Positions 412-53,275 of a DNA stretch of 64,000 nt are shown piece by piece (within the stretch, counting starts at the first letter, position 1; every line of letters starts with the position of its first letter). The notes beneath the pieces are model-generated. The model ran no database searches. It saw only the letters and a program-made list of their open reading frames with translations, and was not told the DNA's origin. Location of the stretch: NCBI GenBank assembly GCA_951406725.2, contig OX597822.1, positions 44,020,001-44,084,000 of the forward strand, in the 5' to 3' direction. A program made the translations under genes and the position numbers. The stretch comes from Octopus vulgaris. Its lineage: Eukaryota.

Positions 412-2679
412 CTAGCCCAGGGTGTTTAAACTTGGTCTAAATTTTTTGATGAAATACAGTTCTTTATTTTGGCGTTGCGTGAAGGTTGCGTTGTCACTGA
501 ATTTATAAAGCGGGTAAGTTGTAAATTTCGGATTTACATTTCCAGCACATCTATCTATGTGTCCGCTGACCGGTATTTTCCGGTATTCAGGGTTTCTAAT
601 TTGTGATTTATGCACCGCCATCCTGTTACGTAAGCTATTTTTTGTATGGCCTATATACTGCCTATTGTAGCCTGCGCATGTTATGACGTAAATTAAGTTT
701 TCTGATGCGCAGGTGAAGTTTGCTCTAATGGTGAACTGATGGCCTTGTTCTAGTATAAATTCTGAACCTTCTATCAAGATGACACAGATTCCGCAGTTGG
801 GCCTTCCACATTTTCTAACTGCTGGTTTTGTGGTTGATGTTGAGTGCAGTTTAGCTTGGGTTAAAATCCTTTTCAAGGATTTTGGTTGCCGTTTACTTTT
901 AATGATGGTGTGTGTTTCGAGGATCCGGTTCATCTTTGGGTCTCCCTTTAGTAGGGCTGTGCTTTGTAGTATGGTGCTGAAGGCCTCATTGTTGAGTGGG
1001 TTGTGTGTAGAGATGTAGGAAAGGGTTTTTAATTGTTCTTTCTTTTTTGGTTTTGTTTGTCTCAGGTCTTCTATACTTAATTTGAGTGCCCTTTGGATTG
1101 CACTGTCTATTAGGGGCTGTGGATAGTTTCTATTTGTGAGTGTGGTTCTAAGTTCCTGGAGACGTGTGTGTCGGGTGTTTGTGTCTGATATTATGGTGCA
1201 GATCCTTCTAGCTAAACAAAAAGGGACATTTATTCTAGTGTGTCGTGGGTGGCATGAATCAAAGGGTAGGTATTGTTTGGAGTCTGTCGGTTTATAGTAG
1301 ATATCTGTCTCTAGTTTTTTGCCGGTTTTCTTAATGAGGATGTCTAAAAATGGTAATTCTTTTTCGTTGTGATCCATCGTGAATTGTATATTATCATTTA
1401 TTCCATTTAATAGTATTTTAAATTCCTTAAGTTTCTCTATACCTTTGTCCCAGATGATGAAGCAGTCATCGAGGTATCTTTTCCAGTTGTTATGGATATA
1501 GGTGGCGAAGGTGTTTCCAAATTTCTCGAGTGTTATCTGGTAGAGTATTTTCTCGAGGTATCCCATCACTAGGTTGGCAAAAGATGGTGCAGTACGCGTG
1601 CCCATCGCTGTTCCCGATCTTTGTCTGTAGAAATTATTGTCAAAAATAAAGTAATTGTTCTCTATTATAAGGTCTTTGTTTATGCGAGTTGGGAGTTCAA
1701 AGGGGTAGTTATTCAGCCAGAAGGTGATCGCTTCTATTCCTAGGTTGTGAGGGATGTTAGAATAAAGATTAACTACGTCGAATGATACTAGAAGGGTTTT
1801 CTCATTGACTGTTTTAGGGAGGTGGTTGAGCATATCTATATCGTCTCTTACGTAGCTTTTGATGTGTTTTAGGAAAGGTTTAAGAAGTGTGTCTAAGAAA
1901 TTGCTGAGGCGGTGAGTCTCACATGCTGGCCCTGCTATTATCGGTCTAAGTTTAAGATCATTTGGTGAAGGGATTTTGATGAGTATATCGGTAGATGTTT
2001 TGCACGTTTCTCTAATTATTTGGCTTTTGTGTACTTTAGGGATACCATAGAACAAACTCGATTTGCATTTGAAGTTAGTGATGTATTCATACTCCTTGTC
2101 CGTGAGTCCTTCTCGGTATGTGTTGATTAATGTCCTAAGGTTATGCATTATTTTTTGCTGATTATACTGTTGGGCCCTTTCATAATACGTTTCATCTCTT
2201 AATAGGGATAGCACTAAATTTTTATAATCGTTTGTATTCATTATTACTATCGCGTTGCCCTTATCTGCCTCCTTAATTGTTATTGCTTTGTCTTCTCTTA
2301 GTTTGATGAGGTCGTTCCATTCTCTTTTGTTGAAGTTAGGGCTGTGTTTTTGTTTCTTGATGAATTGAAACGGGAAATTAGTTATGTAGTCACAATAGCG
2401 GTCTAAGGCTTTATTCTTTCCCTTGGTGGGGGTGTAATTGCTCTTGTTTCTAGCTATTGAATCCTCCTCTATTTGTTTGTCTTGAAATTCCTCGGTGAGT
2501 CTTAGTTTTCTGCAAAATTCCGAAATATCATCTTTCATTTCATAGTAATTAGAACGTTGTGGGGTTGGTGTAAATTTAAGTCCTTTGGAGAGTATGCTTA
2601 TTTCGTTAGGTGTAAGTTCTTTGTTTGAGAGATTGATTATCTTAATTACCTGAGGTTTCTTTTGTTTGTCCTTTGCCAT
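412..2679 (-). CDS. Penelope-like retroelement ORF: reverse transcriptase + C-terminal GIY-YIG endonuclease (Neptune/Naiad-like)
   Basis: 755-aa ORF with the N-terminal NLS..L.KGLKF.P motif, the PLE-diagnostic DKG (KEADKGNAIV), RPII, SFDVVNLY, GTAMG..AP and YLDD RT motifs, a CxxxxCxxC linker (CGRPNCGIC), LIY..TC...YIG nuclease motifs and the H/H residues of the CCHH finger. Relative to the copy at 31911 it has a Cys>Tyr change and a stop 3 codons earlier (LG* vs LGQEY*). Confidence 0.95.
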   Translation of the reverse strand: MAKDKQKKPQVIKIINLSNKELTPNEISILSKGLKFTPTPQRSNYYEMKDDISEFCRKLRLTEEFQDKQIEEDSIARNKSNYTPTKGKNKALDRYCDYITNFPFQFIKKQKHSPNFNKREWNDLIKLREDKAITIKEADKGNAIVIMNTNDYKNLVLSLLRDETYYERAQQYNQQKIMHNLRTLINTYREGLTDKEYEYITNFKCKSSLFYGIPKVHKSQIIRETCKTSTDILIKIPSPNDLKLRPIIAGPACETHRLSNFLDTLLKPFLKHIKSYVRDDIDMLNHLPKTVNEKTLLVSFDVVNLYSNIPHNLGIEAITFWLNNYPFELPTRINKDLIIENNYFIFDNNFYRQRSGTAMGTRTAPSFANLVMGYLEKILYQITLEKFGNTFATYIHNNWKRYLDDCFIIWDKGIEKLKEFKILLNGINDNIQFTMDHNEKELPFLDILIKKTGKKLETDIYYKPTDSKQYLPFDSCHPRHTRINVPFCLARRICTIISDTNTRHTRLQELRTTLTNRNYPQPLIDSAIQRALKLSIEDLRQTKPKKKEQLKTLSYISTHNPLNNEAFSTILQSTALLKGDPKMNRILETHTIIKSKRQPKSLKRILTQAKLHSTSTTKPAVRKCGRPNCGICVILIEGSEFILEQGHQFTIRANFTCASENLIYVITCAGYNRQYIGHTKNSLRNRMAVHKSQIRNPEYRKIPVSGHIDRCAGNVNPKFTTYPLYKFSDNATFTQRQNKELYFIKKFRPSLNTLG

Positions 2680-3148
2680 CGTGTGTCCCTGTTCCTGTGT
2701 GTAAGGTCTAAAAAATGGTTGGTGTAGTTATGTTCAAAACTACTATTTATCTGTCTCATGTTGTTATATATATATATACAGAGCAAAGCAACGTAGGTTC
2801 TAAAACCGATTTGTCCGAGAAACAAATCAATGTTACACATTACAATTAATGTAAAAGAGACTAATTCTTTTCTAATCCCCAGATGAATGCTTATATACTT
2901 GCTTACACTATATATTTTAGTATAAAAACGTTTATTCAAACTGTAAATAAAACACAAAAGTGTGTTATTTCATAGATGGGGAGCCCTCTTCCATAAAATC
3001 TTCTGGTAACTGTCTTTCGGGGGTTTCTTCCTTTCTCTGCCACTTTGGCTCTTTAAATCTTTCTCTGAGGTTTCTTTTATTTCTTCCAGTAAAAAACCTG
3101 TCCTATGTTATTAGTTGTTTTTGCCTGCGTTGTAAATCTTTTCTAAAA

Positions 3149-7915: not shown

Positions 7916-8180
7916 TACGGTACTTCGTCTAAAACACTTTAGTCTGAGATGCTTTGATCTAAAGCATTTTTGTCAAAAGACGAAAACGTCTATTAGAGTA
8001 TAGTTATTTGTAACTTAAACATTTTTTAAGATTCTATAGAAAAAATAGACATTAGACCAATGTGATTTTAGACAAAATATCTTTAGACTATAGGGTGTTT
8101 ATACCAAAGTCATTTTAGGCCAAACTCCTTTAGACCATAGCGCATATTTTTAGAAGTGTTTTAGACGAAAAGTCCTAGAT
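7916..8180. mobile_element. MITE with 16-bp inverted repeat and ~15-bp subterminal repeats
   Basis: TTCGTCTAAAACACTT (7924-7939) / AAGTGTTTTAGACGAA (8154-8169); internal ttagacca/ttagacaa repeats at ~15-bp period. Confidence 0.7.
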
Positions 8181-8254
8181 CTGTAAATATATATATGATC
8201 GACCGCTAGCCATTAAGCATCTCCCCCCCCCTATTTGTTTATTTTCTCGTGTTC

Positions 8255-8290
8255 CTTTCTGTCGAAGAGCGTAGGCTCGAGACGCAAAAG
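8255..8290 (+). ncRNA. Degenerate minimal hammerhead motif, CUGUNGA family
   Basis: cttt-CTGTCGA-a-gagc(gtag)gctc-GAGAC-GCA-aaag; homologous to 20739-20776 but with core mutations. Confidence 0.5.
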
Positions 8291-8346
8291 ACTTTCTCAC
8301 CTTCCCGAGCGTGAAACTAATACACCTATTTGTTCTTTACACATAT

Positions 8347-8521
8347 GTGTGGCTGTGTGGTAAGTAGCTTACTTACGAACCACATGGTTCCGGGTTCATT
8401 CACACCGCGTGGCACCTTGGGCAAGTGTCTTCTACTATAGCCTCGGGCCGACCAAAACCTTGTGAGTGCATTTGGTAGACGGAAACTGAAAAAGCCGGTC
8501 ATATATATGTATGTATATATG

Positions 8522-8574
<53 letters not shown>

Positions 8575-8790
8575 TTATACGTCTGTGTGTCTGTATTTGT
8601 TTCCCCAACATCGCTTGACAACCGATGCTGGTGTGTTTACGTCCCCGGAACTTAGCTGTTCGGTATGAGAGACCTATAGAAGTACTAGGCTTACAAAGAA
8701 TAAGTCCTGGGGTCGATTTGCTCGACTAAAGGCGGTGCTCCAGCACGGCCACAGTCAAATGACCGAAACAAATAAAAGAGTAAAAGAGTA
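8347..8790 (+). mobile_element. Bipartite tRNA-derived SINE with internal microsatellite (family A; dominant repeat of the window)
   Basis: gtggctgtgtggtaag (A box)...gggttcagtccc (B box)...ccttgggcaagtgtctt...(TA/TG)n...gatagaataagtactaggcttacaaagaa...gtaaaagag tail. Full or half copies also near 6320, 9360(-), 10571, 11979, 15843, 19795, 26275, 28775, 36820, 37045-37827(-), 37867, 38305(-), 38840(-), 39527(-), 41388, 41507, 41935, 47783, 50812, 51381, 56282(-), 58190, 60380(-) and 61290(-). Confidence 0.9.
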
Positions 8791-8798
8791 TATATATG

Positions 8799-8882
<84 letters not shown>

Positions 8883-9914
8883 ATTTCTATTAAACCACAC
8901 AAGACTCACGAAGCTCCAAAGTAAACTACATTCATCTATAAATCTATTTCCCATTTCAAATACATTCCTTAGTAATTCTAGCACTGCGTAAATAGCAATA
9001 TTCTTCCTAAGACTGGCAACAAAAAGAGACGATAAAGAAAAAAATGAAAGCACACTCAGTTTAATCAGGAGATGGTCCATCCTTTGCTGTTTAATCGGAT
9101 AATACATAGTTTTGACACTTATAGATAGAAGAAATGCAACGGCAGGTGTCAACCTTGATAAAAAAAATAAATTTGCGTAACGCTGCTCGGGAAAACGTAA
9201 ACAACTTATACTAAATGAAGGCGAAAACTTATTATTTAAAAATCATGAAACCTAAATTTTGAAAATAAACAAAACGGAAAATATGTCATATGTGTATATA
9301 CACATTATACATGATATTCTCTGTAGAAGCATCATATCCAATTACCATATGTATCTTTTATCCTCTGTGTTTTAATCATTTCACACATGTAAGTGTGGTC
9401 ATGGTGGAGCACTCCCTTCAATAATTTTTGTTGGAAGAATCGACCCCAGAAGTCTGTTGCCGAAGCGCTAGATTACGGGGATGCAAACACGGCAACACCG
9501 GTTGTGAAGACGTGGTGGAGGAAAAACAGACACAAATACACAAAGAGACACTCACGCAACCACGCACACATTATTGCACGCGTACACACACATGCGCACA
9601 CACGCGCGCGTGCGCACACACACACACACAAAAGACTACACTTGCTCGAGTAAGACCATTTCCTAAGCCCAGAGTCCAAGAAGCACATCTGTGTGAATTA
9701 ATTTTGAGTGAATAGTGTTGCACCCCACTATCGATCATAAAACCAATGGCATACTAGAGGTAGAGACTATCAGGGTTTTTAATACGAATTTACCGTCTCC
9801 TAAGAAGGTTATTATGGCAAGGCCTATGGTTGCTTTTCTCACATATATACGTGCATACATACATGCCTATATATACGTGTATGTTTGGGAACAAATGTAT
9901 CTATCAATCGATGG

Positions 9915-10091
<177 letters not shown>

Positions 10092-10509
10092 TGTTATATA
10101 AATATTTGTTCTCTAACCGATAAATTAACTGCTGCTAACTATTAGCTGCAGGCTAGTTTTCTCGGGTCTCATCGCGCCAAAATTAGAGACATTTGAAATA
10201 TATATTTCAAATGTAATAGGCCGTACTCCATGCACGCAATATTTCGGTATCGTGTTGGCATTTAGTACAGCAAATTACATTTTATATGGGACCATGCTGA
10301 TGATGGCTGCACTTTTCCTTGCGGAAAATAACAGCCGAAACTGAATTTAGTACATGGGTAAATATTTATTTCGTATATTTTTCACTTGTTTATTGTTTTG
10401 GTTTTGTGTTGAGTTTGATCTGAGAACATGGACTTTTTGTGGAGAATGGCGATTTGACGTCTATATCTAGCATGTTGACTGTCCACTTTTTCGTGTTCAG
10501 TCCTTAATT

Positions 10510-10573
<64 letters not shown>

Positions 10574-10919
10574 CGCAGGAGTGACTGTGTGCCCCTGGCA
10601 CCTTAGGCAAGTGTCTTCTACTATAGCCTCGGGCCAAGCAAAGCCTTGCGAGTGGATTTGTTAGACGGAAAGTGAAGGAAGCTCATCGTATGTATGTGTG
10701 TGAGCTTGTGTGTCTATTTGTCTCCCCAACATCGTTTGACAATCGATGCTAATGTGTTTACATCTCCGTAGCTTAGCTGTTCGGCAAAAGACAGCGATAG
10801 AATAATTACTAGGCTAACAAAGAATACGTCCTGAGGTCGATTTGCTCTATTAAAGGCGATGGTCCAGCATAGCCGAGTCAAATGACTGAAACAAGTCAAA
10901 GAATAATAGAATATATGTA

Positions 10920-11390
<471 letters not shown>

Positions 11391-11457
11391 TTGCTAGTAC
11401 AATTATTGCGATTATCTCTTAGAGAGATTTTAAAACTAGCCTTTTAGCTTATGTTTA

Positions 11458-11496
<39 letters not shown>

Positions 11497-11518
11497 CATA
11501 TATATACATATATATATG

Positions 11519-11551
<33 letters not shown>

Positions 11552-11814
11552 GCATACACACACACACATATATATATACATGTACTGGGTAAGTTTCTGT
11601 GAATTCACTTCATTTATGCTCAATCAAATTATCTCACCTTAGTACACAGACGTGTGATATGTAGCTGTAATCCTCCAGATGCCGGGGAAATTCTGAAACT
11701 GTCGTGTCGGTTCATTAGTTAACACTATTTATGTGATCGGATTTGTCTTCATCAACAAACTCCTGTCACTAAACTAGTGAGAGGTATCATATGCTTATTA
11801 TCAGGCGCTAGGCT

Positions 11815-12129
11815 GAAACCATTTTAGAAGCTGTTTCTCAGAGATAGTTTCTATGTCTATATCTGATATTTGAGTATCAAAAAGGCATTTACGAGTCTAA
11901 CAGGAAGCGAATTTAAGAATAGTTTCCTTCAACATCCACACTCATTCAGGATAAAGAACAGGTAAAATTTCATATCTCTGGCTGTGTGGTAAGTACCTTG
12001 CTTATCAACCACATGGTTCCGCGTTCAGTCCCACTGCGTGGTACCTTGGGCAAGTGTCTTCTACTATAGCGTCGGACCGACCAAAGCCTTGTGAGTGGAT
12101 TTGGTAGACGGAAATTGAAAGACCGTCGG

Positions 12130-12214
<85 letters not shown>

Positions 12215-12400
12215 TGTGTGTGTGTCTGTGTGTGTGTGTTTGTGTGTCTGTGTTTGTCCCCGTATCTTAGCAGTTCGGGAAAAAGAGACCGATAGAATAA
12301 GTACTAGGCTTACAAAGAATAAGTCCTGGGATCGATTTGCTCAACATAAAGTGATGCTCCTGCATTGAAACAAGTAAAGAGTAAATTCATCTGGTAAATC
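11815..12400 (+). pseudogene. Highly decayed PLE-type GIY-YIG endonuclease remnant split by a family A SINE (11979-12383)
   Basis: FTSLTGSEFKNSFLQHPHSFR resembles YIGLT..FK.R...H..SFR; KFIW follows the SINE. Confidence 0.4.
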
Positions 12401-13004
12401 TGTGTCCAGAATGGTAACATACTCTTCTTACCATTCAGTAACGTTGATTTTTTTTTGATAGCGTGGAACAATAATTTAACCTGCATGGAAATATGAAAAA
12501 CACGTAAGCATATCATTCCAAATACTGAAAAAACCAACAAAATTTCTTTAAAATAGTTGAGATATATAGATCAATTGTAGACACTGGCAGGGTTTATCCA
12601 AGCCTTTATGAAATCATAATGCCACAATCCTAGACATCGGTTCCATGGAACACCCGCTAAAGCGGTCCAGATTTTGCAGAGTAATGACCCTTGAAAGTAA
12701 AAAAACCCATTTGCTTTCTTCTACTATACACAATATTCTAGTTACAGAAGTTTGAACACCAAAGATCAACAAACTTACATCTAGTCCTCTTGATTTAATG
12801 CCGTTCACTAATTTCCTCAATCTCAAATCATAAACAGAAAGACAGCTAAAAGATATATTGTGCGATTCTGAGTGACAGCAGTTAAAAATGTATAGTGGTT
12901 TCATTGTTAGGTTCAAAGATATGTGTATTTTTATGAATTGCGTGCACATTCATATCGCATTGTCTCTTATTCCGATTGTGTGTTTATACATACACAAATA
13001 CAGG

Positions 13005-13054
<50 letters not shown>

Positions 13055-13059
<5 letters not shown>

Positions 13060-13224
13060 TAATCAAAATAAAAACATGATGCCAAGGATTCAGCGGTACA
13101 TATGTTTCGGGCCTTTATTAGACGGATTTATAACAATGCATAATGTATGTCTGTGGCCTTCTTCAGCCGCGCACAACATGTACCGCTGAATCCTTGGCAT
13201 CATGTTTTTATTTTGATTAATTTA
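13055..13224. repeat. Perfect 47-bp inverted repeat next to (TA)n, enclosing a hammerhead
   Basis: 13055-13101 is the exact reverse complement of 13178-13224. Confidence 0.95.
13093..13170 (-). ncRNA. Type I hammerhead ribozyme (minimal, PLE-type)
   Basis: GCGG-CUGAAGA-a-GGCC..(agac/gucu)..GGCC-c-GAAAC-auau-GUA-CCGC: canonical core, stem I GCGG/CCGC, palindromic stem III ACAUAUGU, GUA triplet. Confidence 0.8.
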
Positions 13225-13308
13225 CTCCACCACCTACACCACCAAACGGTATATACAGGTGCTTACAATTATCAAGTACTCACCCCGAATTTCTATATAT
13301 ATATATAT

Positions 13309-13375
<67 letters not shown>

Positions 13376-13589
13376 TGCACAGATACATATAGGTACGTAA
13401 ATATATATATATATATGTTTCTATGCGCATGTATGTATATATATACACACACTTAAGTATGTATCAGTATATTTATATATATATATATATATATATATAC
13501 TCATACACATACGCGCAATCACGAATATATACATCTCTACATATTTTTATGTATGTATATATATATATACACAAATATATATATATGCA

Positions 13590-13621
<32 letters not shown>

Positions 13622-13644
13622 AATATGTAAATACACACACACAT

Positions 13645-13707
<63 letters not shown>

Positions 13708-14233
13708 TGTGTACGTATGCGTGTGTATGGATAATACATACATATACAGGTCACTATACCCAACTCATACAAGATTCGCCTGTTCTAAAAATGAGGTCCG
13801 TTTATTAAAAGTGCTCGATAAAAAATTAAAAACCAATTATGCCACAATCGATAGGAGTGAACGAACGGGAAAGAACGAGACAATAGAAAGGGAACATTAA
13901 ATATACACCCACTTATACGCACAGGCATAAATGTACAAACACACAGAACACAGATACACAAACACACATGCACACATGCACACACAAATATATATATTTG
14001 TCTGTGTGTGTAGATATATATATATATATATATATATAAAGAGGTTTGCATGTATATGTATGAATGTATACATGTATGTGCCTATGAATTATGTCCTACA
14101 AAGTTTGCAAATAAATACTTGGATATCTTGAAAGGTTGACAGGGTAGAATATTAACTTAAAATATTCATGCGACGGGAAGAGTTACGTTGTGCATTTTCA
14201 ATGCCTATAAATAGTCATTCAAATATCATACAT

Positions 14234-14335
<102 letters not shown>

Positions 14336-14338
14336 ATG

Positions 14339-14371
<33 letters not shown>

Positions 14372-14747
14372 GTATGTGTATACATATATATATATATATG
14401 TGTGTGTGTATATATGTATGTATATATATATATATATATATACACATATATATTTGTGTGTACATGTGTGCATATGCGTGTGTGTGCCCATTTGTATATA
14501 TATGTGTGTGCCCATTTGTATATATATGTCTGTGCGTATGAGTGGGTACATCAACGTATGTATGAACCTTATAGGTTTTGTGGTGCAAGTATCAATTTAT
14601 TTGAAAGTGAGATTTTTTTTGCGGAAATTGTACAAGATATTCAGACATAAATTAGCAGTTGAGTACAACTCAAGCCATTGATAAATATATATATGTATAT
14701 GTATGTGTGTATGTATGTATATATATATGTATATGTATGTGTGTATG

Positions 14748-14798
<51 letters not shown>

Positions 14799-16239
14799 AT
14801 CTTTATATATATATATATAACTGTATATTCACATTTATGTATACGTATATGTATGTGTATCTATACATATGTATGTTTATATATATGCATATGAATACAT
14901 CAATAAAGTTCTACCGAAACAGCTGTAGACTTTTAAATCAGGCCATTTGCTTTCTTTTTTGAATACAAGTATATAAGTGTGTGCATGTAAAGTTAAAACT
15001 TCTCAGACAGAATACTGCGGTCGATAGAATTTGGTTTCATGTGCACTCGAAAAATACAAAGAATGTACGTTGTACCTTTCTTTTTCGAGAAGCTTTTAAT
15101 AAAAGACCATTAACCTCTACGTTCCTATCACGTTCGGAGTACTTTATCTGAAAGCCTTTCTATTTGATTGAAGCACCAGATTCCACGATAATACAGAAAT
15201 ATAGGTTTATGTATACGATGTATGTACGTTGTACAAATACAGACAAACATATATGTGGTTGTCGCATTTTGCTCGAATGTTCAAGAATTTCGCTTCGCAA
15301 CTATAAGGAATCGGTATCGACTCCACTGCGTGGTTCCAATATTCATGTGTAATTTTTTATAACTTGTGTTTGATTCATTGATTGTTTGTGAAATTAGATA
15401 GATGGAAACTATATCGAAACCTGTCGAGTAAATCTTATGTGGAATTTCAAACAACTGTAACTTTGTCATGCACTAAACTGTGTTATGCTAATTCTACGAG
15501 AGAATTATGTTCAGTGTACATATGTCTTTGGAATATTCAGCCTGTTACATGTTAATTCAGGAGGAAGTAATTCAGTTAATCAAATGACAGAAACCTCTTC
15601 GCCCCAGAGCGAGACCCACGCCCATATACATATACAGTCAGGAATTGTGTGCATTTGTAAGTTTTGGGGCAAAACATTACTGCGGTCATTTCACGTTACT
15701 CCAGCCTGCTCAACGGTAGATGTATATGCCATGCAAGGGATTAACCTTCCGTTCATGGAGAGTGTTGGCTTGCTCAACTAGTCAGCGGAGTAGCGCCTTT
15801 CGAAAGCTGAACAATGTAAAACTCATTCTGAACAATAGCAGATCGCGTGGCTGTGTGGTAAGAAGCTTGCTTCCCAACCACATGGTTCCAGATTCAGTCC
15901 CACTTCGTGGCACCTTGGGCAAGTGCCTTCTACTATAGCTTTGGGGCGACTAAAGCATTGTGAGAGGAAACTGAAATAACCCCGTCGTATAGATATTTGC
16001 GACACTTTCCTTTTCTAACAACTCTAATTCCTCTCACCCTCTCTCTCGTCTTCTTACACTTAATTGTAGACTTTCTCCCATTCTTCCCCTGTTCTCTCTT
16101 GCTCCGTCTGTCTGTCTGTTTCTCTCTCTCTGCCACTATCACTCCCTCCGTCCCTTCTCTCTTCTACCCACACATATCAGTGACTTTTTTTCTATCTTCC
16201 GTCTTTTTGCCACTGGACGCCTATATTTGTTGTCCTCTT

Positions 16240-16358
<119 letters not shown>

Positions 16359-16359
16359 T

Positions 16360-16760
16360 CTTTTCTACTCTAGACACAAGGCTCGAAATTTGGGGGGGGA
16401 GGGGGACATTTAATTAGATCTACCGCAGTACGCAACTGTTACTTAATTTCTCGACCCTGTAAGGATGAAAGGCAAAGTCCACCTCAGCGGAATTTGAACT
16501 CAGAACGTAACGGCAGACGAAATACCTATTTCTTTACTACCCACGAGGGGGGGGGTAAACACAGAGTGGACAAACAAGGACAGACAAACGTATCAAGTTG
16601 ATTACTTCGACCCCAGTGCGCAACTGGTATTTATTTAATCGACACCGAAATGATGAAAGGCAAAGTCGACCTCGGCGGAATTTGAATTCAGAACGTAACG
16701 GCAGACGAAATACCGCTAAGAATTTCGCCGGTGCGCTAACGATTCTGCCTGCTCGCCGCA
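16360..16760 (-). mobile_element. MetaSINE-like SINE (family B), two partial tandem copies
   Basis: gcggcgagcaggcagaatcgttagc head, gagttcaaattcc B box, gcctttcatc..gtcgat domain; other copies near 52820(-), 54610(-) and 57990(-). Confidence 0.8.
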
Positions 16761-16805
16761 TTAATATATATATATACATATGTGTGTGTGTGAGCTTAAA
16801 TGTCA

Positions 16806-16946
16806 GCCATGACTAAAGAAAATAGTTTAATATGGGGGCATATAAACCCACGACGGAAAAATCTACCGTTCCTGTACGCTTAACCCTACTTTTTTCCATT
16901 GAGGGCTTATATGCCCCAATATTAGACTATTTGCTTTAGTCCTGGC
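16806..16946. repeat. ~140-bp imperfect hairpin
   Basis: gccatgactaaagaaaatagtttaatatgggggcatataaaccc pairs with gggcttatatgccccaatattagactatttgctttagtcctggc. Confidence 0.85.
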
Positions 16947-17379
16947 GCGGTGATCGCTTATAAGGTTTAAGATTATGAAATATTACGATTATTATTTACA
17001 CAACTGTAAAAATCATACATACATACATACATACATACATACATACAGGCATACGTTCTCACACATGCATACATGCACACACACACACACAAACACACAC
17101 ATATATATGAACTTGTTCCTAAACATAGGCATATCTTTCAATGCGTTGTGGAAATGTCCTTTTTCTTTTTCGAGTAGATACGCGATAGATTTTAAATATT
17201 TCTTAACCAGTAAAACAGCAAAACACTCATGGGGCCTGAAGGATGCTGTGCATCATGAATCAAATATACTTTACATTCCAAATATATTGATTTCTTTCTT
17301 GGGCTGTTGGTTCTTTGATCATACAATTAGTTACATCATGTAACTCTTTCTCTCTCTCTCTCTCTCTTTCTCATTCTGC

Positions 17380-17443
<64 letters not shown>

Positions 17444-17444
17444 G

Positions 17445-17476
<32 letters not shown>

Positions 17477-17513
17477 TGTATAAATATACATATATATATA
17501 TACATATATATAC

Positions 17514-17596
<83 letters not shown>

Positions 17597-17625
17597 CATA
17601 TACATATATACATATATATATATAC

Positions 17626-17674
<49 letters not shown>

Positions 17675-17708
17675 CGTGTATATGTTACTATCTCTATATT
17701 TATATGTA

Positions 17709-17747
<39 letters not shown>

Positions 17748-17850
17748 ATGTATTTTGACGTCATAAGAATTTATAGGGTTTCGAGAAAACATGAAATAAA
17801 TTGCTATTGAAACAGTGGATCTTAGATACATATATATATATATCTATCTA

Positions 17851-17891
<41 letters not shown>

Positions 17892-17923
17892 ATATATATA
17901 CATATATATATATTTATATATAT

Positions 17924-17965
<42 letters not shown>

Positions 17966-17968
<3 letters not shown>

Positions 17969-19490
17969 CCATCCACCACATACAAAACGTAACATCCCAT
18001 ACTGCCTAGCCAGAAGAATTTGTACTATTGTAGAAGATGCAAATATCAGGAACAAACGCCTAATAGAACTAAGAGAATTTTTGCTCAAACAAAAATACCC
18101 ATCTCTACTTATAGAAAATGGCATACAGCGGGCTATAAAAATACCTATACAACAACTTAGGACAACCCAAGGAAGAGGAAAACAAGAACAAGTCATACCA
18201 TTCATAGTGACACACAACCCATGTCACCAGAATATCTTCAACATTGCCAAAGCAAACCTACCGATCATTGCCCAAAGTAATGAATTAAAAGACATAATCA
18301 AGGATCGAGCTATGGTGCTTAGTAAAAGACAGCCTAAAAACTTGAAAACATTACTAACAAAGGCAAAATTTAACCTCAGCAACAAAGACCAAACATTCAC
18401 GGTATCTAAATGCAATGATAGCCGATGTGGCACATGCCAATTCATACATACCGGTCAATATATAAACACAAAAACCGGGAAAATATTCACAAACGCGAAT
18501 ATGAACTGCAAAAGCAGAAATTTAATTTACTGCATCAAATGCCCAAATTGTGAAGAAATATATGTAGGTCAGACGGGAAACGCACTATTAGAACGCTCAC
18601 GTGTACACCGGCAACAGATTAGAGACCCAGAGGTCCGTCAGATACCTTTGAGTAACCACCTAGCAACATGTGGTCGGAAAATATATATAATATTTCCATT
18701 CTACAAATTACACAGCCCAAGTGAAATCGAGAGGAAAATCAGAGAAAAGAATTTTATTGATAAATTCGAACCCAAGCTAAATAAGCAATAATAATAATAC
18801 TTAGAGGTATTACTTCCACTGCTACGACCATGACCACTAACAACAACAACAATACTAAAGGTGATCAAGAGGAAGATAGCAGGAAAATTATCTTATTTAG
18901 GGTTAAAAGTTCTATTGCCACCACCATCACCACTAGCAACAATAATTAAGGTGCTGACAATGATGATGATGACAATTGAAATATAAAAATATAAAAATCT
19001 CTGACAAAGGATATTTACAACATTTCTAAAAATAACCCAACAATTGCTGCTTCGGCCAGGGTCAAGATACAGGACTCTTGACCTGTCCAACAAAGCGTGA
19101 TGCCTAAACCAATCAGCTCAACCAACCAATCAGCTTAAGTAATTGAGTGATACTACACACTGATTGGTCAGAATACAGTTTGCAAAACCTAGCACTCTGG
19201 AGCCTACCCAGCTGTATTTATAGCACAGAATCACTCATCTTGCTACAGTCAAAAATTGTGAAGCATGACTGTCAACACTACTACATGAACCCGAAGATTG
19301 CAGAATTCAATGCATGAAAGTACTAGTTCAATCAGAATGAATATTTAACATTCTACTATTTCATTTTATTTTATTCAATTATAATATATTATCTTATAAT
19401 ATATCATTATAAGATTGTAAATAAAACGTGAAAATCAGACAAGGTTGGAATTCTTTTTATTAATATATTCTTCTATACACAATCACACAC
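17966..19490 (+). mobile_element. 5'-truncated PLE (second Neptune/Naiad-like family) between (TA)n arrays
   Basis: Open frame 17967-18791: [57 protein letters not shown]; followed by a ~700-bp 3' UTR with CCAAT boxes and a hammerhead motif. Confidence 0.92.
19286..19330 (+). ncRNA. Minimal hammerhead motif in PLE 3' UTR (U4C core change)
   Basis: UGAAC-CCGAAGA-u-UGCA(gaauucaa)UGCA-u-GAAAG-ua-CUA-GUUCA; perfect 5-bp stem I, palindromic AGUACU stem III. Confidence 0.7.
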
Positions 19491-20376: not shown

Positions 20377-20640
20377 AACTAAAATTATTGAACAAACAAA
20401 TGCAAGGTCATCCGCATATCATTTCATAATTCGAACATTTAATCATAGAATATACATATAAACATCCCGCAAGATGGAACATAATTCATCTGTATAAGCA
20501 GACTAGCACATAATAATAATAAGGTGCGAGAAAAAAATTCTTATCATCAAAAATTTAGAGTTAATATTTTAGCGATTCAGAAAAAATACATTTTTTTAAA
20601 AAAGACGTATAATTAATATTGATATATAATATATATATAT

Positions 20641-20856
20641 AACGGGAAGCTTTATGAAAATAAACAAAAGACGAAGGCAGGTGGAATACAAACAAACAAT
20701 TGTATTAGTAAGGCGCTCAGGAATATAAATAAAACAAGTCTTTTACGTTTCGAGCCTACGCTCTTCAACAGAAAGATACACAGAAAAGAAACACGGAGAG
20801 AAACAAGGAGAGAAAAAAATGCGTGCAGAAGCTAGCGAATCAACATGGCGATTTGG

Positions 20857-20858
<2 letters not shown>
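20641..20858 (-). mobile_element. Short (TA)n-flanked non-coding element with CUGUUGA hammerhead
   Basis: (TA)n on both sides; its 3' half recurs almost identically at 63301-63397 (+). Confidence 0.75.
20739..20776 (-). ncRNA. 38-nt minimal hammerhead with A6U variant core
   Basis: UCUUU-CUGUUGA-a-GAGC(guag)GCUC-GAAAC-GUA-AAAGA; stem I 5 bp, stem II 4 bp, loopless palindromic ACGU stem III. Confidence 0.7.
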
Positions 20859-20894
<36 letters not shown>

Positions 20895-21531
20895 TTATAT
20901 ATATTTATATATATATATATACATATATATGCATATACATATATACACAGTGAACCCATATTGTATTGTACCTCTTCATGCCGAATATTGAATAAATTAA
21001 ACGAAATCCGAATTAACAGAATAAGTTCTAACATTGACTTATTGACTTCGACCATTTTTGTTTATCAGTGTTGTAGGGAGGCATAATATTTTATGCAGGA
21101 CTACTTGCACGTTGCACTCCGACCGAAGATGGTGAATTCCAAATGGAGATTAATTTTATCCAATAGTATAATCATGGATCATAACTGGAAACTAATTGAT
21201 CTGTCGCTCTACGTTTTATTGTAATAATTGCTACGAGCTAGCGGTAGCTAATATTCGTTAGCTCTCTCATGGCGTGTATTGAGCTGATGTTAAAACAATA
21301 CGTGAATGGCAAGAACAATACGAGTGTTGTTTTATCAGAACACATCTTGTTTATTAATTTTCGTACATCTGTCTAAGAAATATACGCTTTCCTTCTAACA
21401 CATCTTCAACCTAACTAAAGTCCTTATCTACTGAGTATTTGAACATGGGCATCAGTTATTCTAGCTGACTTGTTCTATTCATATTCAATCAGTTCTATAT
21501 TTAAGAGATGAGGAATTATGTACGTTATTTA

Positions 21532-21605
<74 letters not shown>

Positions 21606-21607
<2 letters not shown>

Positions 21608-21790
21608 TAGTTTTATTTTTATAGCGTGCTTTCACTTCACTACCGAGCGCAGCTCTGTGTGCCTTGGGTATGTGCTGTGATTTGTTGTGATGCTCTGATG
21701 GTTACTGTATGGAGAGTGTTCTGCGTAGGATGTGTGCAGTGCCTAGTAGTGCAATTTTCTGTATGTTATATGTGTTTGTAAGTCCTGGTG
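21606..21790 (-). mobile_element. 3' end of R4/Dong-like (RLE) non-LTR element in (AAT)n
   Basis: PGLTNTYNIQKIALLGTAHILRRTLSIQ* followed by a short UTR; (AAT)n on both sides. Confidence 0.75.
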
Positions 21791-21817
21791 TTATATAATA
21801 ATAATATATTATTATTA

Positions 21818-21891
<74 letters not shown>

Positions 21892-21894
<3 letters not shown>

Positions 21895-21960
21895 CTCACT
21901 GCTTGGAATCGAACTCGGAATCTTGGGGTTATTAGCCCGCGCTCTTAACCACTACGCCAC
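21892..21960 (-). mobile_element. tRNA-derived head followed by (AAT)n
   Basis: A box TGGCGTAGTGG (21949-21959), B box GTTCGATTCC (21905-21914); an inverted partial copy of the B-box segment lies at 21973-21997. Confidence 0.75.
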
Positions 21961-21994
21961 GACATATAGCGTAGTTCGATTCCAGGCAGTGTCT

Positions 21995-22088
<94 letters not shown>

Positions 22089-22146
22089 CAACAACAACAT
22101 CAAAAAAAGCCTTAGGAATGATAAACCAGTTTCGAAATTTCCCTAA

Positions 22147-22192
22147 GGCACCTGATGAAGGCTGGAGGGTATATCAGCCGAAACGTTGTGTT
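22147..22192 (+). ncRNA. Minimal type I hammerhead ribozyme
   Basis: GGCAC-CUGAUGA-a-GGCUG(gaggguauau)CAGCC-GAAAC-GUU-GUGUU; canonical core, palindromic AACGUU stem III. Confidence 0.85.
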
Positions 22193-22468
22193 AACAACAA
22201 ACCAGATTAGGATAAATATCCGTCAAATGTAAATAATGTAAATAATTTACATATTCAGTCAGTCCATTACTTATATAGGATTTATACATTTTCTTATCCG
22301 CTTTCAAACTTCCGTCTAATAATCACTACATTTTGTCGAATCATCAGGTACATACACCGATATTGGTGTTTAAGCGGGGCAGAGGCAGACACAAACAGGC
22401 ACATATACACATACATACGTGTATTCAGAAGTATTTACAGAATACTTGTATGTATGTATGTACGTGTG

Positions 22469-28214: not shown

Positions 28215-28636
28215 TTGTACAGTTCTATATTTAAGAGATGAGGAATTATGTACATTATTTCCATTATTTCCATTACTTACAATTGACGGATATTTGTCCT
28301 TATCTTGTTGGTTAACACAACGTTTCGGCTGCGGCGAGCTAGCAGAAGCGTTAGCACACCGGGCGAAATGCTTTGCGGTACTTCGTCTGCCGTTACGTTG
28401 TGAGTTCAAATTCCGCCGAGGTCGACTTTGCCTTTCATCCTTTCGGGGTCGATAAATTAAGTACCAGTTACGCACTGGGGTCGATGTAATCGACATAATA
28501 CCTATGCCTGTCCTTGTTTGTCCCCTCTATGTTTAGCCCCTTGTGGGTAATAAAGAAATTGATATACTCTCCAGCCTTCGTCAGGTGTCTTGGGGAAATT
28601 TCGAACCTGGATTCTCATTCCTAAGGTATTTTTCGA

Positions 28637-28690
<54 letters not shown>
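28215..28690 (-). mobile_element. Second copy of the (AAT)n-hammerhead element, interrupted by a family B SINE (28332-28560)
   Basis: GACAC-CUGACGA-a-GGCUG at 28572-28589 and CAGCC-GAAAC-GUU-GUGUU at 28314-28331; flanks match 22097-22250 and 21490-21540. Confidence 0.85.
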
Positions 28691-28695
<5 letters not shown>

Positions 28696-29312
28696 CGCCC
28701 TTGTGGCCAATAAAAGAATTAATAATAATTATTATTATTGTGTGTATATATGCGTGTGTGTATATGTTTGTGTGACTATGTGTTTGTCCCCCCAACATCG
28801 CATGACAACCGATGCTGGTGTGTTTAAGTCCCCTTAACTTAGCGGTTCGGCAAAAGAGACCGATAGAATAAGTACTAGGCTTACAAAGAATAAATCCTGG
28901 GGTTGAGTTGCTCGACTAAAGGCGTTGCTCCAATATAGCCACAGTGAAATGAATGAAACAAGTAAAAGAGTAAAAGAGTCAAATTGTGGATGCGATAAAA
29001 ATAACAGAGATAGGTTTACCTTGCGTGGAATATATAAGTAAGGATGTGTATATTCCAGGATCTATAGATTTCCATTTGTGTATCTAAAAGTTGCTTAAGC
29101 TCATCAGTTGGACCCAACACATAGTAAGCTATTTCGGAAATATTCATCATCTTACACTATGTGCGTTTTTACATTTGAATACCGCGCGTCATTCAAAAAT
29201 GAACATATCGTGAGTTATGAAAACAAACTATGAAATAATACACACACACGCACGCACACAGACACACAGACAGACAGACACACACACACACACACATACA
29301 AATATATATATA

Positions 29313-30470
29313 CATATGTAAAAGTAAAAAAATACAAACTGGAACAAGAACGTGAAACATTTAGAAGACGACACAAAAAACACGGACGGGACATTCGAAG
29401 CCCTCAATCTTCAGTCAAGAACCGGATCATCTTCGCAATTTCGGCTGATTAATCTCGAGATCGCTCCGACGCGGCCAGCCCCAAAGGAAAATCTAACCCA
29501 AGCGCATTAGATTCCTTGGAAGAAAGCCTCGAATGTATACAAAACAAGGATGGAAAACGGACGATGTTACACGAATAAAAATACAAAAATACGTAAAAAC
29601 AATAATGATAGCACGAATAAGAATACAAAAATACGTAAAAACAATAATGATAATAATAACAACAAAACCAGGACGTCACAGACAAGCGTCTTTTCGACAG
29701 GACGAGTAAAGTTTTGAGTTGGCGTTAGAAGATAACCTTAAGGCTACAGAGAAACAAACAAGTGTGTCTTGCCACAACGACTGCTGGACGCGAAAGGACA
29801 GCAGTCGGTGGCTGGTCACGTGAGGGAAAGAAAGAGGAAAAAGAGGGACAGATGAAGAGAGAAAGAAGGGGAACAAGGAACAAGGGAGGAGGAGAAGAAA
29901 GAGAGAGAAAGAGAAAGATCAAGTGGAGTGCAAAGTGTGAAAGGCAGAGAAATGTAGGAGAGGGGGGACAGATGAAGAGAGAAAGAAAGAAGGGGAACAA
30001 GGAACAAAGGAAGAGGAGAAGAAAGAGAGAGAAAGAGACAGATCAAGTGGAGTGCAAAGTGTGAAAGGCAGAGAAATGTAGGAGAGGGGGGAGAGAGACA
30101 GTGTTGTAGAGTCGTACCATGTGTTAAAGAATATATACTTACGTATAGGGTCAAAAAGGGGTACGCCGTCGCTTATGTACATATGTAAAAGTAAAAAAAT
30201 ACAAGCTGGGACAAGAACGTGAAACATTTAGAAGACGACACAAAAAACACGGACGGGACATTCGAAGCCCTCAATCTTCAGTCAAGAACCGGATCATCTT
30301 CGCAATTTCGGCTGATTAATCTCGAGATCGCTCCGACCCGGCCAGCCCCAAAGGAAAATCTAAGCCAAGCGCATTAGATTCCTTGGAAGAAAGCCTCAAA
30401 TGTATACAAAACAAGGACGGAAAACGGACGATGTTACACGAATAAAAATACAAAAATACGTAAAAACAAT
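29313..30470. mobile_element. Non-coding element with ~290-bp terminal direct repeats, flanked by (TA)n
   Basis: 29313-29602 is near-identical to 30181-30470; internal ~120-bp purine-rich tandem duplication (29842-30090); diverged partial solo copy at ~47035-47167. Confidence 0.85.
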
Positions 30471-30685
30471 ATATATATATACACACACTCTGGCCTTCTT
30501 TCAGTTTCACTTTGACAAATTTAATCACAAAACTTTGGTCGGCTTGGGTCTATTGTCAAAGGCTCTCGTCCAAGGTGCTACGAAAATAGATAAAACTTCG
30601 TAGCATGCAGCCAGGCCAATATTTCGGACCGCTGAAACCTACAAGATTATTTTTTTCATTCTATCTAACTTTATTTTCTTTTATG

Positions 30686-30723
30686 ACTCTCTGTTGAAGA
30701 GCGTAGGCTCGAAACGCAAAGGA
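30686..30723 (+). ncRNA. Hammerhead motif, CUGUUGA family (mutated triplet)
   Basis: CTGTTGA-a-gagc(gtag)gctc-GAAAC-GCA; the downstream body resembles the 20083 copy. Confidence 0.55.
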
Positions 30724-30801
30724 CATTTTCATTTTCCCGTTCCTCAAACTATTACACTTGTTTGTTGTTCATACACCGGTCTTCGTCTTTTATTTATTTA
30801 T

Positions 30802-33181
<2,380 letters not shown>

Positions 33182-33234
33182 TGTTCATCTTTCTTTTCCT
33201 TCAGTCTGTCGCACAGATCAGACGCATCTATATA

Positions 33235-33273
<39 letters not shown>

Positions 33274-33541
33274 ACATGCATACATATATACATATATGTA
33301 CACGTACAAACACCGTAATCACACACACGCACACAAATATATATATATATATATATATGTGTGTGTCAGTGCGTGTGTGCGCGTGTGTGTGCGAAGTCCA
33401 GGTTTTCAAATAGAACAAACCAAGTGCTCACAGCCCGAGATTGCTTGGAGATTCAACGTACGTTATAAAAACTTTTTCGAAACACGTGCCGTAATGGCAA
33501 GAAACTGTTACTAGCTCTTATTTTTATCCACTCTACATTAA

Positions 33542-33605
<64 letters not shown>

Positions 33606-33606
<1 letters not shown>

Positions 33607-33999
33607 TAGCAGTATCGCCCGGCGTTGCTCCGGGTTTGTAAGGGAAATAACTATAAAGCACTTTAGAGAGTTATAGCCAAAAATAGCAAAAAATGCATTA
33701 AAATGGAAAAAAAATTATGGTAAATTTTTTTTTAAATCGTTGACTCATCGTAGACATTTTTAGCTAGTTACTTCCCTTTATTTAAAAAATATGCGTTAAA
33801 ATGGAAAAAAATTATGGTAAATTATTTTTTAAATCGTAGACTCATCGTAGACGCGCACTAATACCCAGAAGGGCTCGATATGAATCACGACTATAAGATC
33901 CCCGGTTTTGGTTAAACTGCATCGCAAAATGTGGGAGTAGTTAGGAATCTAAATCGTAGGAGACAGACACTCACACAACTTCACTTTTATATATATAGA
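33606..33999 (-). mobile_element. Non-autonomous Helitron
   Basis: 5' TC, 3' hairpin cccggagcaacgccggg then CTAG; inserted between A and T within (TA)n. Confidence 0.8.
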
Positions 34000-34009
34000 T
34001 ATATACATG

Positions 34010-52808: not shown

Positions 52809-53017
52809 TAATCCTTTTTACTAAAGGCACAAGGCCTGAAATTTTGGGGAGGGGGTTCTAATCGTTTACATCGTCTCCAAGGTTTCATTGGAACTTAATT
52901 TATCGACCCCGAAAGGATGAAGGGAAAAGTCGACCTCGGCAGAATTTGAAGTCAGAACGTAACGACAGACAAAATACCGCTAAGCATTTCGCCCGGCGTT
53001 TTAACGATTCTGCCAAC

Positions 53018-53224
53018 TTGTGGCCAAATAATAATCTGGAAACTTTAGAAATACCCCACAATCTAGGTATATTGCAAAAATCGGCATTACTTGGAAGGGC
53101 ACGCATATTGTGTAAAGTACTGTCTGTCTGGGGTCCTTGTGGTGACTTGACAAACAGTACAAAGTCCCGGTAGACACAATATCTTCAATCAACAACCTCA
53201 CGATATTATATACTGTATGACACC

Positions 53225-53275
<51 letters not shown>
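53018..53275 (+). mobile_element. R4/Dong-like LINE 3' end with (AAT)n tail
   Basis: LEIPHNLGILQKSALLGRARILCKVLSV. Confidence 0.75.

What the first reader, a model, noticed from the sequence alone, without database searches (positions are those of the whole stretch)
21490..22250. Apparent tRNA-headed SINE carrying a Penelope-type hammerhead, in back-to-back inverted copies
Seen on the plus strand: B box (21974) - (AAT)n - body - canonical hammerhead (22147-22192) - tail. Seen on the minus strand, directly adjacent: full A+B-box tRNA head (21892-21960) - (AAT)n - [R4 fragment] - (AAT)n - the terminal sequence cataattcctcatctcttaaatatagaactg, which also ends the 28215-28690 copy. Inference: a Pol III-driven SINE whose 3' module is PLE-like rather than LINE-derived. 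SINEs normally borrow LINE tails, and the inverted 5' arrangement resembles PLE insertions.
Basis: partly seen in the sequence, partly recalled or inferred. Interest (0 to 1): 0.8.

Follow-up and report, generated by a model that had tools for sequence, protein, structure and literature searches.

The report
tRNA-headed Penelope-type hammerhead retroposon
This is one back-to-back insertion of a very abundant short repeat that carries a predicted self-cutting RNA motif and ends the way Penelope retrotransposons end; both halves start with a tRNA-like promoter, so it is likely a SINE that borrows Penelope rather than LINE machinery, but whether that promoter belongs to the whole family is untested.

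Summary
New here: 21490-22253 is bounded by a 14-bp target-site duplication (1 mismatch; 1 of 2960 random sites scored as well), both 3' ends point outward, and only one arm carries a 34-nt tail. Contigs from four organisms show the body is a high-copy family (roughly 4x10^3-3x10^5) whose 3' ends fall in two classes, tail-less and tailed, the published Penelope (PLE) signature. So PLE-type mobilisation is well supported. The crux, whether the tRNA head belongs to the family, could not be counted: no genome was held and the read tool skipped the (AAT)n. In the window the head lies upstream in 2 of 3 arms/copies, with no (AAT)n on its 5' side, which argues against later insertion into the array; copy 2 has no head. 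A Pol III, tRNA-derived SINE with a hammerhead is already known (schistosome Sm-alpha). The novelty would be its PLE-type integration. New variant of a known kind; interest 0.45.

The parts
21480..21493 (+). left target-site duplication (last 4 nt overlap the tail end)
   Evidence: CATATTCAATCAGT vs CATATTCAGTCAGT at 22250-22263, 1 mismatch; 1 of 2960 random sites reached the score
21490..21523 (-). 34-nt optional PLE-type tail, 3' end of the inverted arm
   Evidence: same tail in copy 2 and as a loose-end class in 4 of 4 runs
21524..21604 (-). last few bases of the body plus (AAT)24; the hammerhead body is missing from this arm
   Evidence: loss by AATAAT microhomology is inferred
21605..21800 (-). 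3' fragment of an R4/Dong-like LINE inserted in the (AAT)n
   Evidence: AAT repeats on both sides; weak match to a second such piece near 53024-53110 (9 of 13 identities); family label recalled, no Pfam hit
21801..21891 (-). (AAT)23 plus degenerate units
21892..21963 (-). tRNA-like head with Pol III A box (21959-21949) and B box (21914-21906)
   Evidence: only A+B pair in window; acceptor 5 of 7 pairs, anticodon arm 3 of 5, T arm 2 of 5; not called by ARAGORN or Rfam
21964..21968 (.). ATATA spacer at the inversion centre; 7-bp fold-back ACTACGC/GCGTAGT around it
   Evidence: hairpin, -8.1 kcal/mol
21969..21996 (+). 28-nt head remnant (A-box start joined to B box, likely by AGT microhomology)
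   Evidence: 19 of 23 identical to the full head from the B box on
21997..22095 (+). (AAT)29(AAC)n array
22096..22253 (+). repeat body; modal tail-less family end at 22245-22246, this copy may reach 22253
   Evidence: 86% to copy 2; 8,079-18,142 contigs laid per run
22147..22192 (+). minimal type I hammerhead motif, predicted cleavage after U22187
   Evidence: listed non-CpG family variants fall outside the invariant core (table 3)
22250..22263 (+). right target-site duplication
28220..28691 (-). second family member: (AAT)17, body, tail; another SINE (28332-28562) inserted in hammerhead stem II; no head, no TSD partner found

Best explanation
21490-22253 is one head-to-head insertion, bounded by a target-site duplication, of a short high-copy hammerhead-bearing repeat that is likely copied by a Penelope-like (PLE) reverse transcriptase/GIY-YIG protein, and the tRNA-like head was likely part of the copied RNA, making it a probable Pol III-driven non-autonomous PLE. 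Shown: the anatomy, the TSD, the two family-wide 3' ends 34 nt apart, high copy number, A and B boxes. Inferred: Pol III starts at the head and reads through (AAT)n, hammerhead and tail (no T4 run in any sense arm); a PLE protein binds the pLTR-like 3' part, nicks both strands of AT-rich DNA about 10-14 bp apart and starts reverse transcription internally at either of two sites on uncleaved RNA, one at each nick, or by fold-back at the centre; this leaves 3' ends pointing outward and a tail on one arm only. The long palindrome later lost the body on one arm and the head middle on the other, and an R4/Dong-like LINE inserted into one (AAT)n. The minimal hammerhead would cleave only as a dimer or with protein help and is not needed to define the genomic end.
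For: TSD 14 bp, 1 mismatch, 1 of 2960 nulls. Loose ends in 4 of 4 runs split into a stop at 22245-22246 with unrelated flanks (X13 61+182, X5 80+227, X6 94+244, X7 91+195 contigs, agreement about 0.4) and a run-on into the tail (96+121, 107+134, 124+134, 81+118); 24 of 729 loose-end rows were shown. Tail 34 nt fits the 30-40-bp optional PLE tail and inverted 5' copy (PMC8557442, PMC3846280, passages) and the two internal RT starts of the anole PLE, which cuts and extends both strands (PMC11167929, parts 1-2 of 4). Minimal hammerheads with palindromic 15.2-16.2 are typical of metazoan pLTRs (PMC4209133, parts 1-2 of 4). Both heads face the same way as their arm, sit directly on the (AAT)n, and have no AAT on their 5' side, unlike the R4-like insert. 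The only two head matches in 64 kb are these. No T4+ in the three sense arms (weak, the strand is A-rich). PLE RT+GIY-YIG ORFs exist in the window.
Against: Copy 2 has no head upstream of its (AAT)17 (its upstream side is disturbed by other SINE pieces). Head-body linkage was not measured in any other copy: the read tool skipped 22072-22111 and printed no letters upstream of the array; 28 of 32 listed contig pieces end within 50 nt of where they start to align. The two heads differ at 4 of 23 positions, somewhat more than the roughly 10% expected between body copies. Head and R4-like fragment both end in CTG(AAT)n, as a Dong-dependent SINE might. No autonomous partner found: the 3' flanks of the three PLE ORFs in the window do not match the body. 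No transcription or cleavage data.
Confidence: 0.6

Rival explanations
1. The head is a separate mini-SINE (tRNA head + (AAT)n tail) moved by R4/Dong LINEs, which target TAA repeats; it landed twice in the (AAT)n of a pre-existing inverted PLE-type insertion.
For: Dong elements target TAA microsatellites, also in a snail (PMC3812793, passage); Dong-R4 covers 92.7 Mb in Octopus vulgaris (PMC13282606 supplement row); an R4-like piece did insert in this very array; head and that piece both end CTG(AAT)n; copy 2 lacks a head.
Against: Neither head has AAT on its 5' side; they meet across 5 nt inside a 7-bp fold-back; two insertions, each in the orientation of its arm, would be needed; none of the other AAT arrays in the window is preceded by a head.
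Confidence: 0.25
2. The body is the 5'-truncated pLTR of an autonomous PLE (or a promoterless retrozyme-like derivative); a head was captured once, by read-through or template switching, so this locus is a one-off or small-subfamily chimera.
For: pLTRs can carry unrelated DNA in trans and (AAT)n stretches may aid template jumps (PMC3846280, passages); most genomic min-HHRs are dispersed singles attributed to truncated PLEs (PMC4209133); variant upstream sequences seen as loose ends at 22131 and 22149-22150 suggest several subfamilies; one PLE ORF in the window (17826-18791) is followed by a short AAT run.
Against: No PLE ORF sequence upstream of the array in either window copy; sequence beyond the tail is heterogeneous in the loose-end consensus rather than a conserved ORF start; the open frame of the body found no protein of 73-2000 aa (weak).
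Confidence: 0.15

Closest known systems
Schistosoma Sm-alpha / Sj-alpha SINE-like retroposons
   Same: tRNA-related (tRNA-Gln for Sm-alpha), apparently Pol III-transcribed, high-copy short elements with a type I hammerhead (PMC6765202, PMC2770079, PMC8490949; passages read; the 1998 primary paper was not held)
   Different: described as tandem/multimeric with the promoter left at the 3' end of cleaved units; the passages read mention no PLE tail or inverted insertion. Here copies are dispersed, the hammerhead is minimal, an (AAT)n separates head and body. Sequence homology not tested.
Penelope-like element pLTR insertions (Penelope/Poseidon, Neptune; Pen2a_Av, PAc)
   Same: minimal type I hammerhead, inverted 5' copy, optional 30-40-nt tail at one end, TSD of about 8-10 bp, palindrome at the inverted junction (PMC3846280, PMC8557442, PMC11167929, PMC4209133)
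   Different: no RT-EN ORF; a tRNA-like Pol III head upstream instead of a pLTR Pol II promoter; no autonomous partner identified
Metazoan non-LTR retrozymes / non-autonomous PLEs (e.g. MRC1)
   Same: short non-coding hammerhead elements thought to be moved by PLEs, with many dispersed monomers (PMC7761336 passages; bioRxiv 10.64898/2026.07.22.740005 parts 1-2 of 5; PMC8557442 passage)
   Different: defined as head-to-tail tandem repeats and said to lack promoters; here no tandem unit in the window and a Pol III-type head
Ordinary tRNA-derived SINEs
   Same: A and B boxes in a degenerate tRNA-like 5' head, high copy number, no ORF
   Different: 3' end is hammerhead plus PLE tail rather than a LINE-derived tail with a terminal simple repeat; the simple repeat is internal

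Membership tests
PLE-mobilised element | type I (minimal) hammerhead near the 3' end | tested here: met
PLE-mobilised element | optional 30-40-nt tail, two 3' end classes | tested here: met
   34 nt; both classes in 4 of 4 runs
PLE-mobilised element | inverted head-to-head insertion within one TSD | tested here: met
   this locus; no TSD partner found for copy 2
PLE-mobilised element | 3' end shared with an autonomous PLE of the same genome | tested here: inconclusive
   no match to flanks of the 3 PLE ORFs in the window; genome not held
Autonomous PLE | RT + GIY-YIG ORF between pLTRs | tested here: not met
   no ORF of 100 aa or more inside 21490-22210
tRNA-derived SINE | internal Pol III A and B boxes in a tRNA-like head | tested here: met
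   cloverleaf degenerate, no ARAGORN/Rfam call
tRNA-derived SINE | head and body move as one unit in most full-length copies | tested here: inconclusive
   2 of 3 arms/copies in the window, the two not independent; no genome-wide count possible
tRNA-derived SINE | dispersed, high copy number | tested here: met
   body only: bounds 4,092-126,854 (X13), 9,914-307,327 (X5), 5,433-168,425 (X6) from summed contig depth; rough, the tool warns depth is no copy number; head not measured
tRNA-derived SINE | LINE-derived 3' end with terminal A-rich/simple repeat | tested here: not met
   family 3' ends are the two PLE-type ends
tRNA-derived SINE | transcribed by Pol III | not testable with these tools
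   only contigs available; no T4 run in sense arms
Non-LTR retrozyme | head-to-tail tandem units each with a hammerhead | tested here: not met
   window copies are single or inverted; arrays elsewhere in the genome not examined
Non-LTR retrozyme | circular RNA intermediate, self-cleavage | not testable with these tools
   needs RNA work
Sm-alpha/Sj-alpha | sequence homology to the schistosome families | not tested
   no sequence of these families was available from a tool

The most novel reading that the evidence does not exclude
A family-wide, tens-of-thousands-copy tRNA-headed Pol III SINE whose 3' module is a Penelope pseudo-LTR and which integrates by the PLE mechanism (two internal reverse-transcription starts, inverted head-to-head copies): a SINE that parasitises PLEs instead of LINEs, and a likely model for how Sm-alpha-type elements move.
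Probability: 0.5. Interest if true: 0.65.

Novelty: new variant of a known kind. Interest (0 to 1): 0.45.

Why it matters
SINEs are defined as LINE parasites. A tRNA-headed element with PLE integration scars would extend the SINE strategy to a third class of retroelement and give a natural 250-300-nt minimal cis-substrate, with thousands of insertions, for the still poorly understood PLE mechanism (what the hammerhead does, why there are two RT starts, how inverted copies form). It would also mean part of the 'unclassified SINE' load of these genomes is mis-binned. If the head is a hitch-hiker, the locus is an ordinary nested repeat and only the high-copy PLE-type body remains.

Tried and rejected
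No genome held, so the decisive BLAST count was impossible. Exact-pattern scans for the body in viral, prokaryote-genome and metagenome contigs and for the head in metagenome contigs: 0 hits each. Using chance translations as a proxy for genome context: word searches with the head's antisense frame (22-72 aa) and the body's sense frame (73-2000 aa) found no candidate; an HMMER profile covering body and head antisense frames gave 2 hits in 1.84 billion proteins, both unrelated low-complexity repeats. Free-energy folding of the hammerhead alone does not give the ribozyme fold (z -0.63), nor did a two-copy cofold, so no folding-energy claim is made; the 150-nt body folds at z -2.2 with stem II formed. 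The loose hammerhead pattern is not enriched in the window (14 matches, 5 of 100 shuffles as many). The head folds no better than shuffles (z +1.0). Twin priming rejected: both arms hold head, (AAT)n and 3' end rather than complementary parts. A TSD partner or second arm for copy 2 was not found in 28600-34000. Four look-ups of earlier findings returned nothing.

Full report
Observation. On the minus strand: a 72-nt head 21963->21892 with A box and B box (the only pair my pattern found in 64 kb; mean 0.02 in 50 shuffles), (AAT)23, a LINE-like 3' fragment, (AAT)24 and a terminal piece 21535->21490 that is 95.7% identical to the end of the copy at 28220. On the plus strand: a 5-nt spacer, a 28-nt head remnant, (AAT)29(AAC)n and a 150-158-nt body that is 86% identical to the 28220-28691 copy. 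The head is tRNA-like by motif only: ARAGORN and Rfam do not call it and its arms pair partly (5 of 7, 3 of 5, 2 of 5). The genome looks octopus-like from its repeat content; that label is recalled and comes from no call.

The hammerhead. 22147-22192 has stem I (5 of 5 pairs), CUGAUGA, one unpaired A, a 6-bp stem II closed by G10.1-C11.1, GAAA, then only C-G-U-U: a minimal type I motif with a palindromic 15.2-16.2, as described for metazoan PLE pLTRs, which cleave poorly and probably as dimers (PMC4209133, parts 1-2 of 4). It was the only one of 3 descriptor hits in the window with a full stem I. Across the family (table 3; 40 of 47 rows shown) the listed non-CpG variants lie at the free core position 22156, loop II and the end of stem I; T22153, G22154, A22155, G22157, A22158, A22181-A22183 and T22186 show none at 2% or more (C22152 shows about 2-3%); G22180 of GAAA and the neighbouring CpG positions show C>T/G>A changes of up to about 10-17%, which I read as post-insertion decay (inference). 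Activity is untested.

One PLE-type insertion. A 14-bp repeat with one mismatch lies at 21480-21493 and 22250-22263; 1 of 2960 random sites scored as well. Both 3' ends point outward and only the left arm carries the 34-nt tail. Laying contigs of four runs from four coded organisms on 22072-22330 placed 17,295, 16,330, 18,142 and 8,079 contigs; summed depth peaks near 8x10^6 against about 54 in the unique flank (X13), which bounds the copy number only roughly at 4x10^3 to 3x10^5. In all four runs the strongest 3' loose ends are a stop at 22245-22246 with unrelated flanks and a run-on into the tail (24 of 729 rows shown). This matches the optional 30-40-bp tail and inverted 5' copy that mark PLE insertions (PMC8557442, PMC3846280; passages) and the two internal RT starts on uncleaved RNA shown for the anole PLE (PMC11167929, parts 1-2 of 4). 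It also means that an RNA cut at 22187 is not the template. The find-runs call listed holders in five coded organisms at word share 0.54. PLE ORFs with RT and GIY-YIG exist in the window but their 3' flanks do not match the body, so the partner is unknown.

Does the head belong? For: both arms of the TSD-bounded unit begin with the head, in the orientation of their arm, directly on the (AAT)n; neither has AAT on its 5' side, while the R4-like insert has AAT on both sides; the centre is a 7-bp fold-back like the palindromic junctions reported for inverted pLTRs; no other AAT array of the 13 listed is preceded by a head; no T4 run interrupts the sense strand (weak). Against: the two arms come from one event and are one observation; copy 2 has no head; the heads differ at 4 of 23 sites; Dong LINEs target TAA repeats (PMC3812793, passage), are abundant in an octopus genome (PMC13282606, part 1 of 3 and supplement rows), and the head ends in CTG(AAT)n as the R4-like piece does. 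The genome-wide count could not be made: no genome, repeat letters skipped, and no hits in collection or protein-proxy searches. I put about 0.6 on the head being part of the copied unit and 0.5 on this being true for a large part of the family.

Mechanism. Shown: anatomy, TSD, two ends, abundance. Inferred: Pol III transcription from the head through the tail; trans-mobilisation by a PLE protein nicking both strands and priming internally at the two sites; later microhomology deletions that broke the palindrome (body lost on the left arm, head middle on the right) and a later R4/Dong-like insertion.

Comparison. It works like a non-autonomous PLE; it fails as an autonomous PLE (no ORF), as a tandem retrozyme (no array in the window) and as a classical SINE (no LINE tail). 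A tRNA-derived, Pol III, hammerhead-bearing SINE-like element is known from Schistosoma (passages of PMC6765202, PMC2770079, PMC8490949), and PLE mobilisation of hammerhead repeats has been proposed (PMC7761336 passages; bioRxiv 10.64898/2026.07.22.740005 parts 1-2 of 5). I found no paper describing this family or a tRNA-headed SINE with PLE integration scars in the listings; the library lacks most subscription papers, Repbase/Dfam were not searchable, and bioRxiv supplements are closed, so the consensus may already sit in a repeat library. PMC8967140 and PMC10886601 (passages) added nothing specific.

Verdict. Real; PLE-type mobilisation well supported; tRNA-head membership plausible but uncounted; precedent exists for the architecture. 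New variant of a known kind, interest 0.45.

Noticed in passing
window 412-2727 (-), 31911-33200 (-), 17826-18791 (+): PLE ORFs: a 771-aa open RT + GIY-YIG frame (Pfam RVT_1, GIY-YIG), a closely related 5'-truncated copy, and a second family whose stop codon runs into a short AAT repeat. None shares its 3' flank with the hammerhead body.
   Followed up: partly
window 28332-28562: A different abundant SINE (about 10 related pieces in the window) is inserted inside hammerhead stem II of copy 2, which would inactivate it.
   Followed up: partly
window 10292-10352 (+): A second hammerhead-like motif with a long branched stem II (-12.4 kcal/mol) but only 2 of 5 stem I pairs under my descriptor.
   Followed up: no
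window 20640-20860 (-): A further pLTR-like piece between (TA)n runs with a hammerhead-like motif whose core reads CUGUUGA instead of CUGANGA.
   Followed up: no
window 52985-53275 (+): Another R4/Dong-like 3' fragment ending in (AAT)16, itself joined to a SINE piece.
   Followed up: partly
run X7, record 29: A deep (264x) 228-nt contig starts exactly at the modal end 22246 and extends about 78 nt beyond the body's 5' edge, a length compatible with a 72-nt head plus two AAT units; its letters were not shown, so it carries no weight yet. 4 of 32 listed pieces extend more than 60 nt upstream.
   Followed up: no
window 22085-22207 (+) and copy 2: One reading frame stays open through most of the body and, in copy 2, through the tail; no protein relative was found, so it may be chance or a relic of a PLE ORF start.
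   Followed up: partly
loose ends at 22131 and 22149-22150: Variant sequences upstream of the same hammerhead in all four runs point to several subfamilies; the segment before stem I contains a B-box-like GTTCRAA motif of its own.
   Followed up: no
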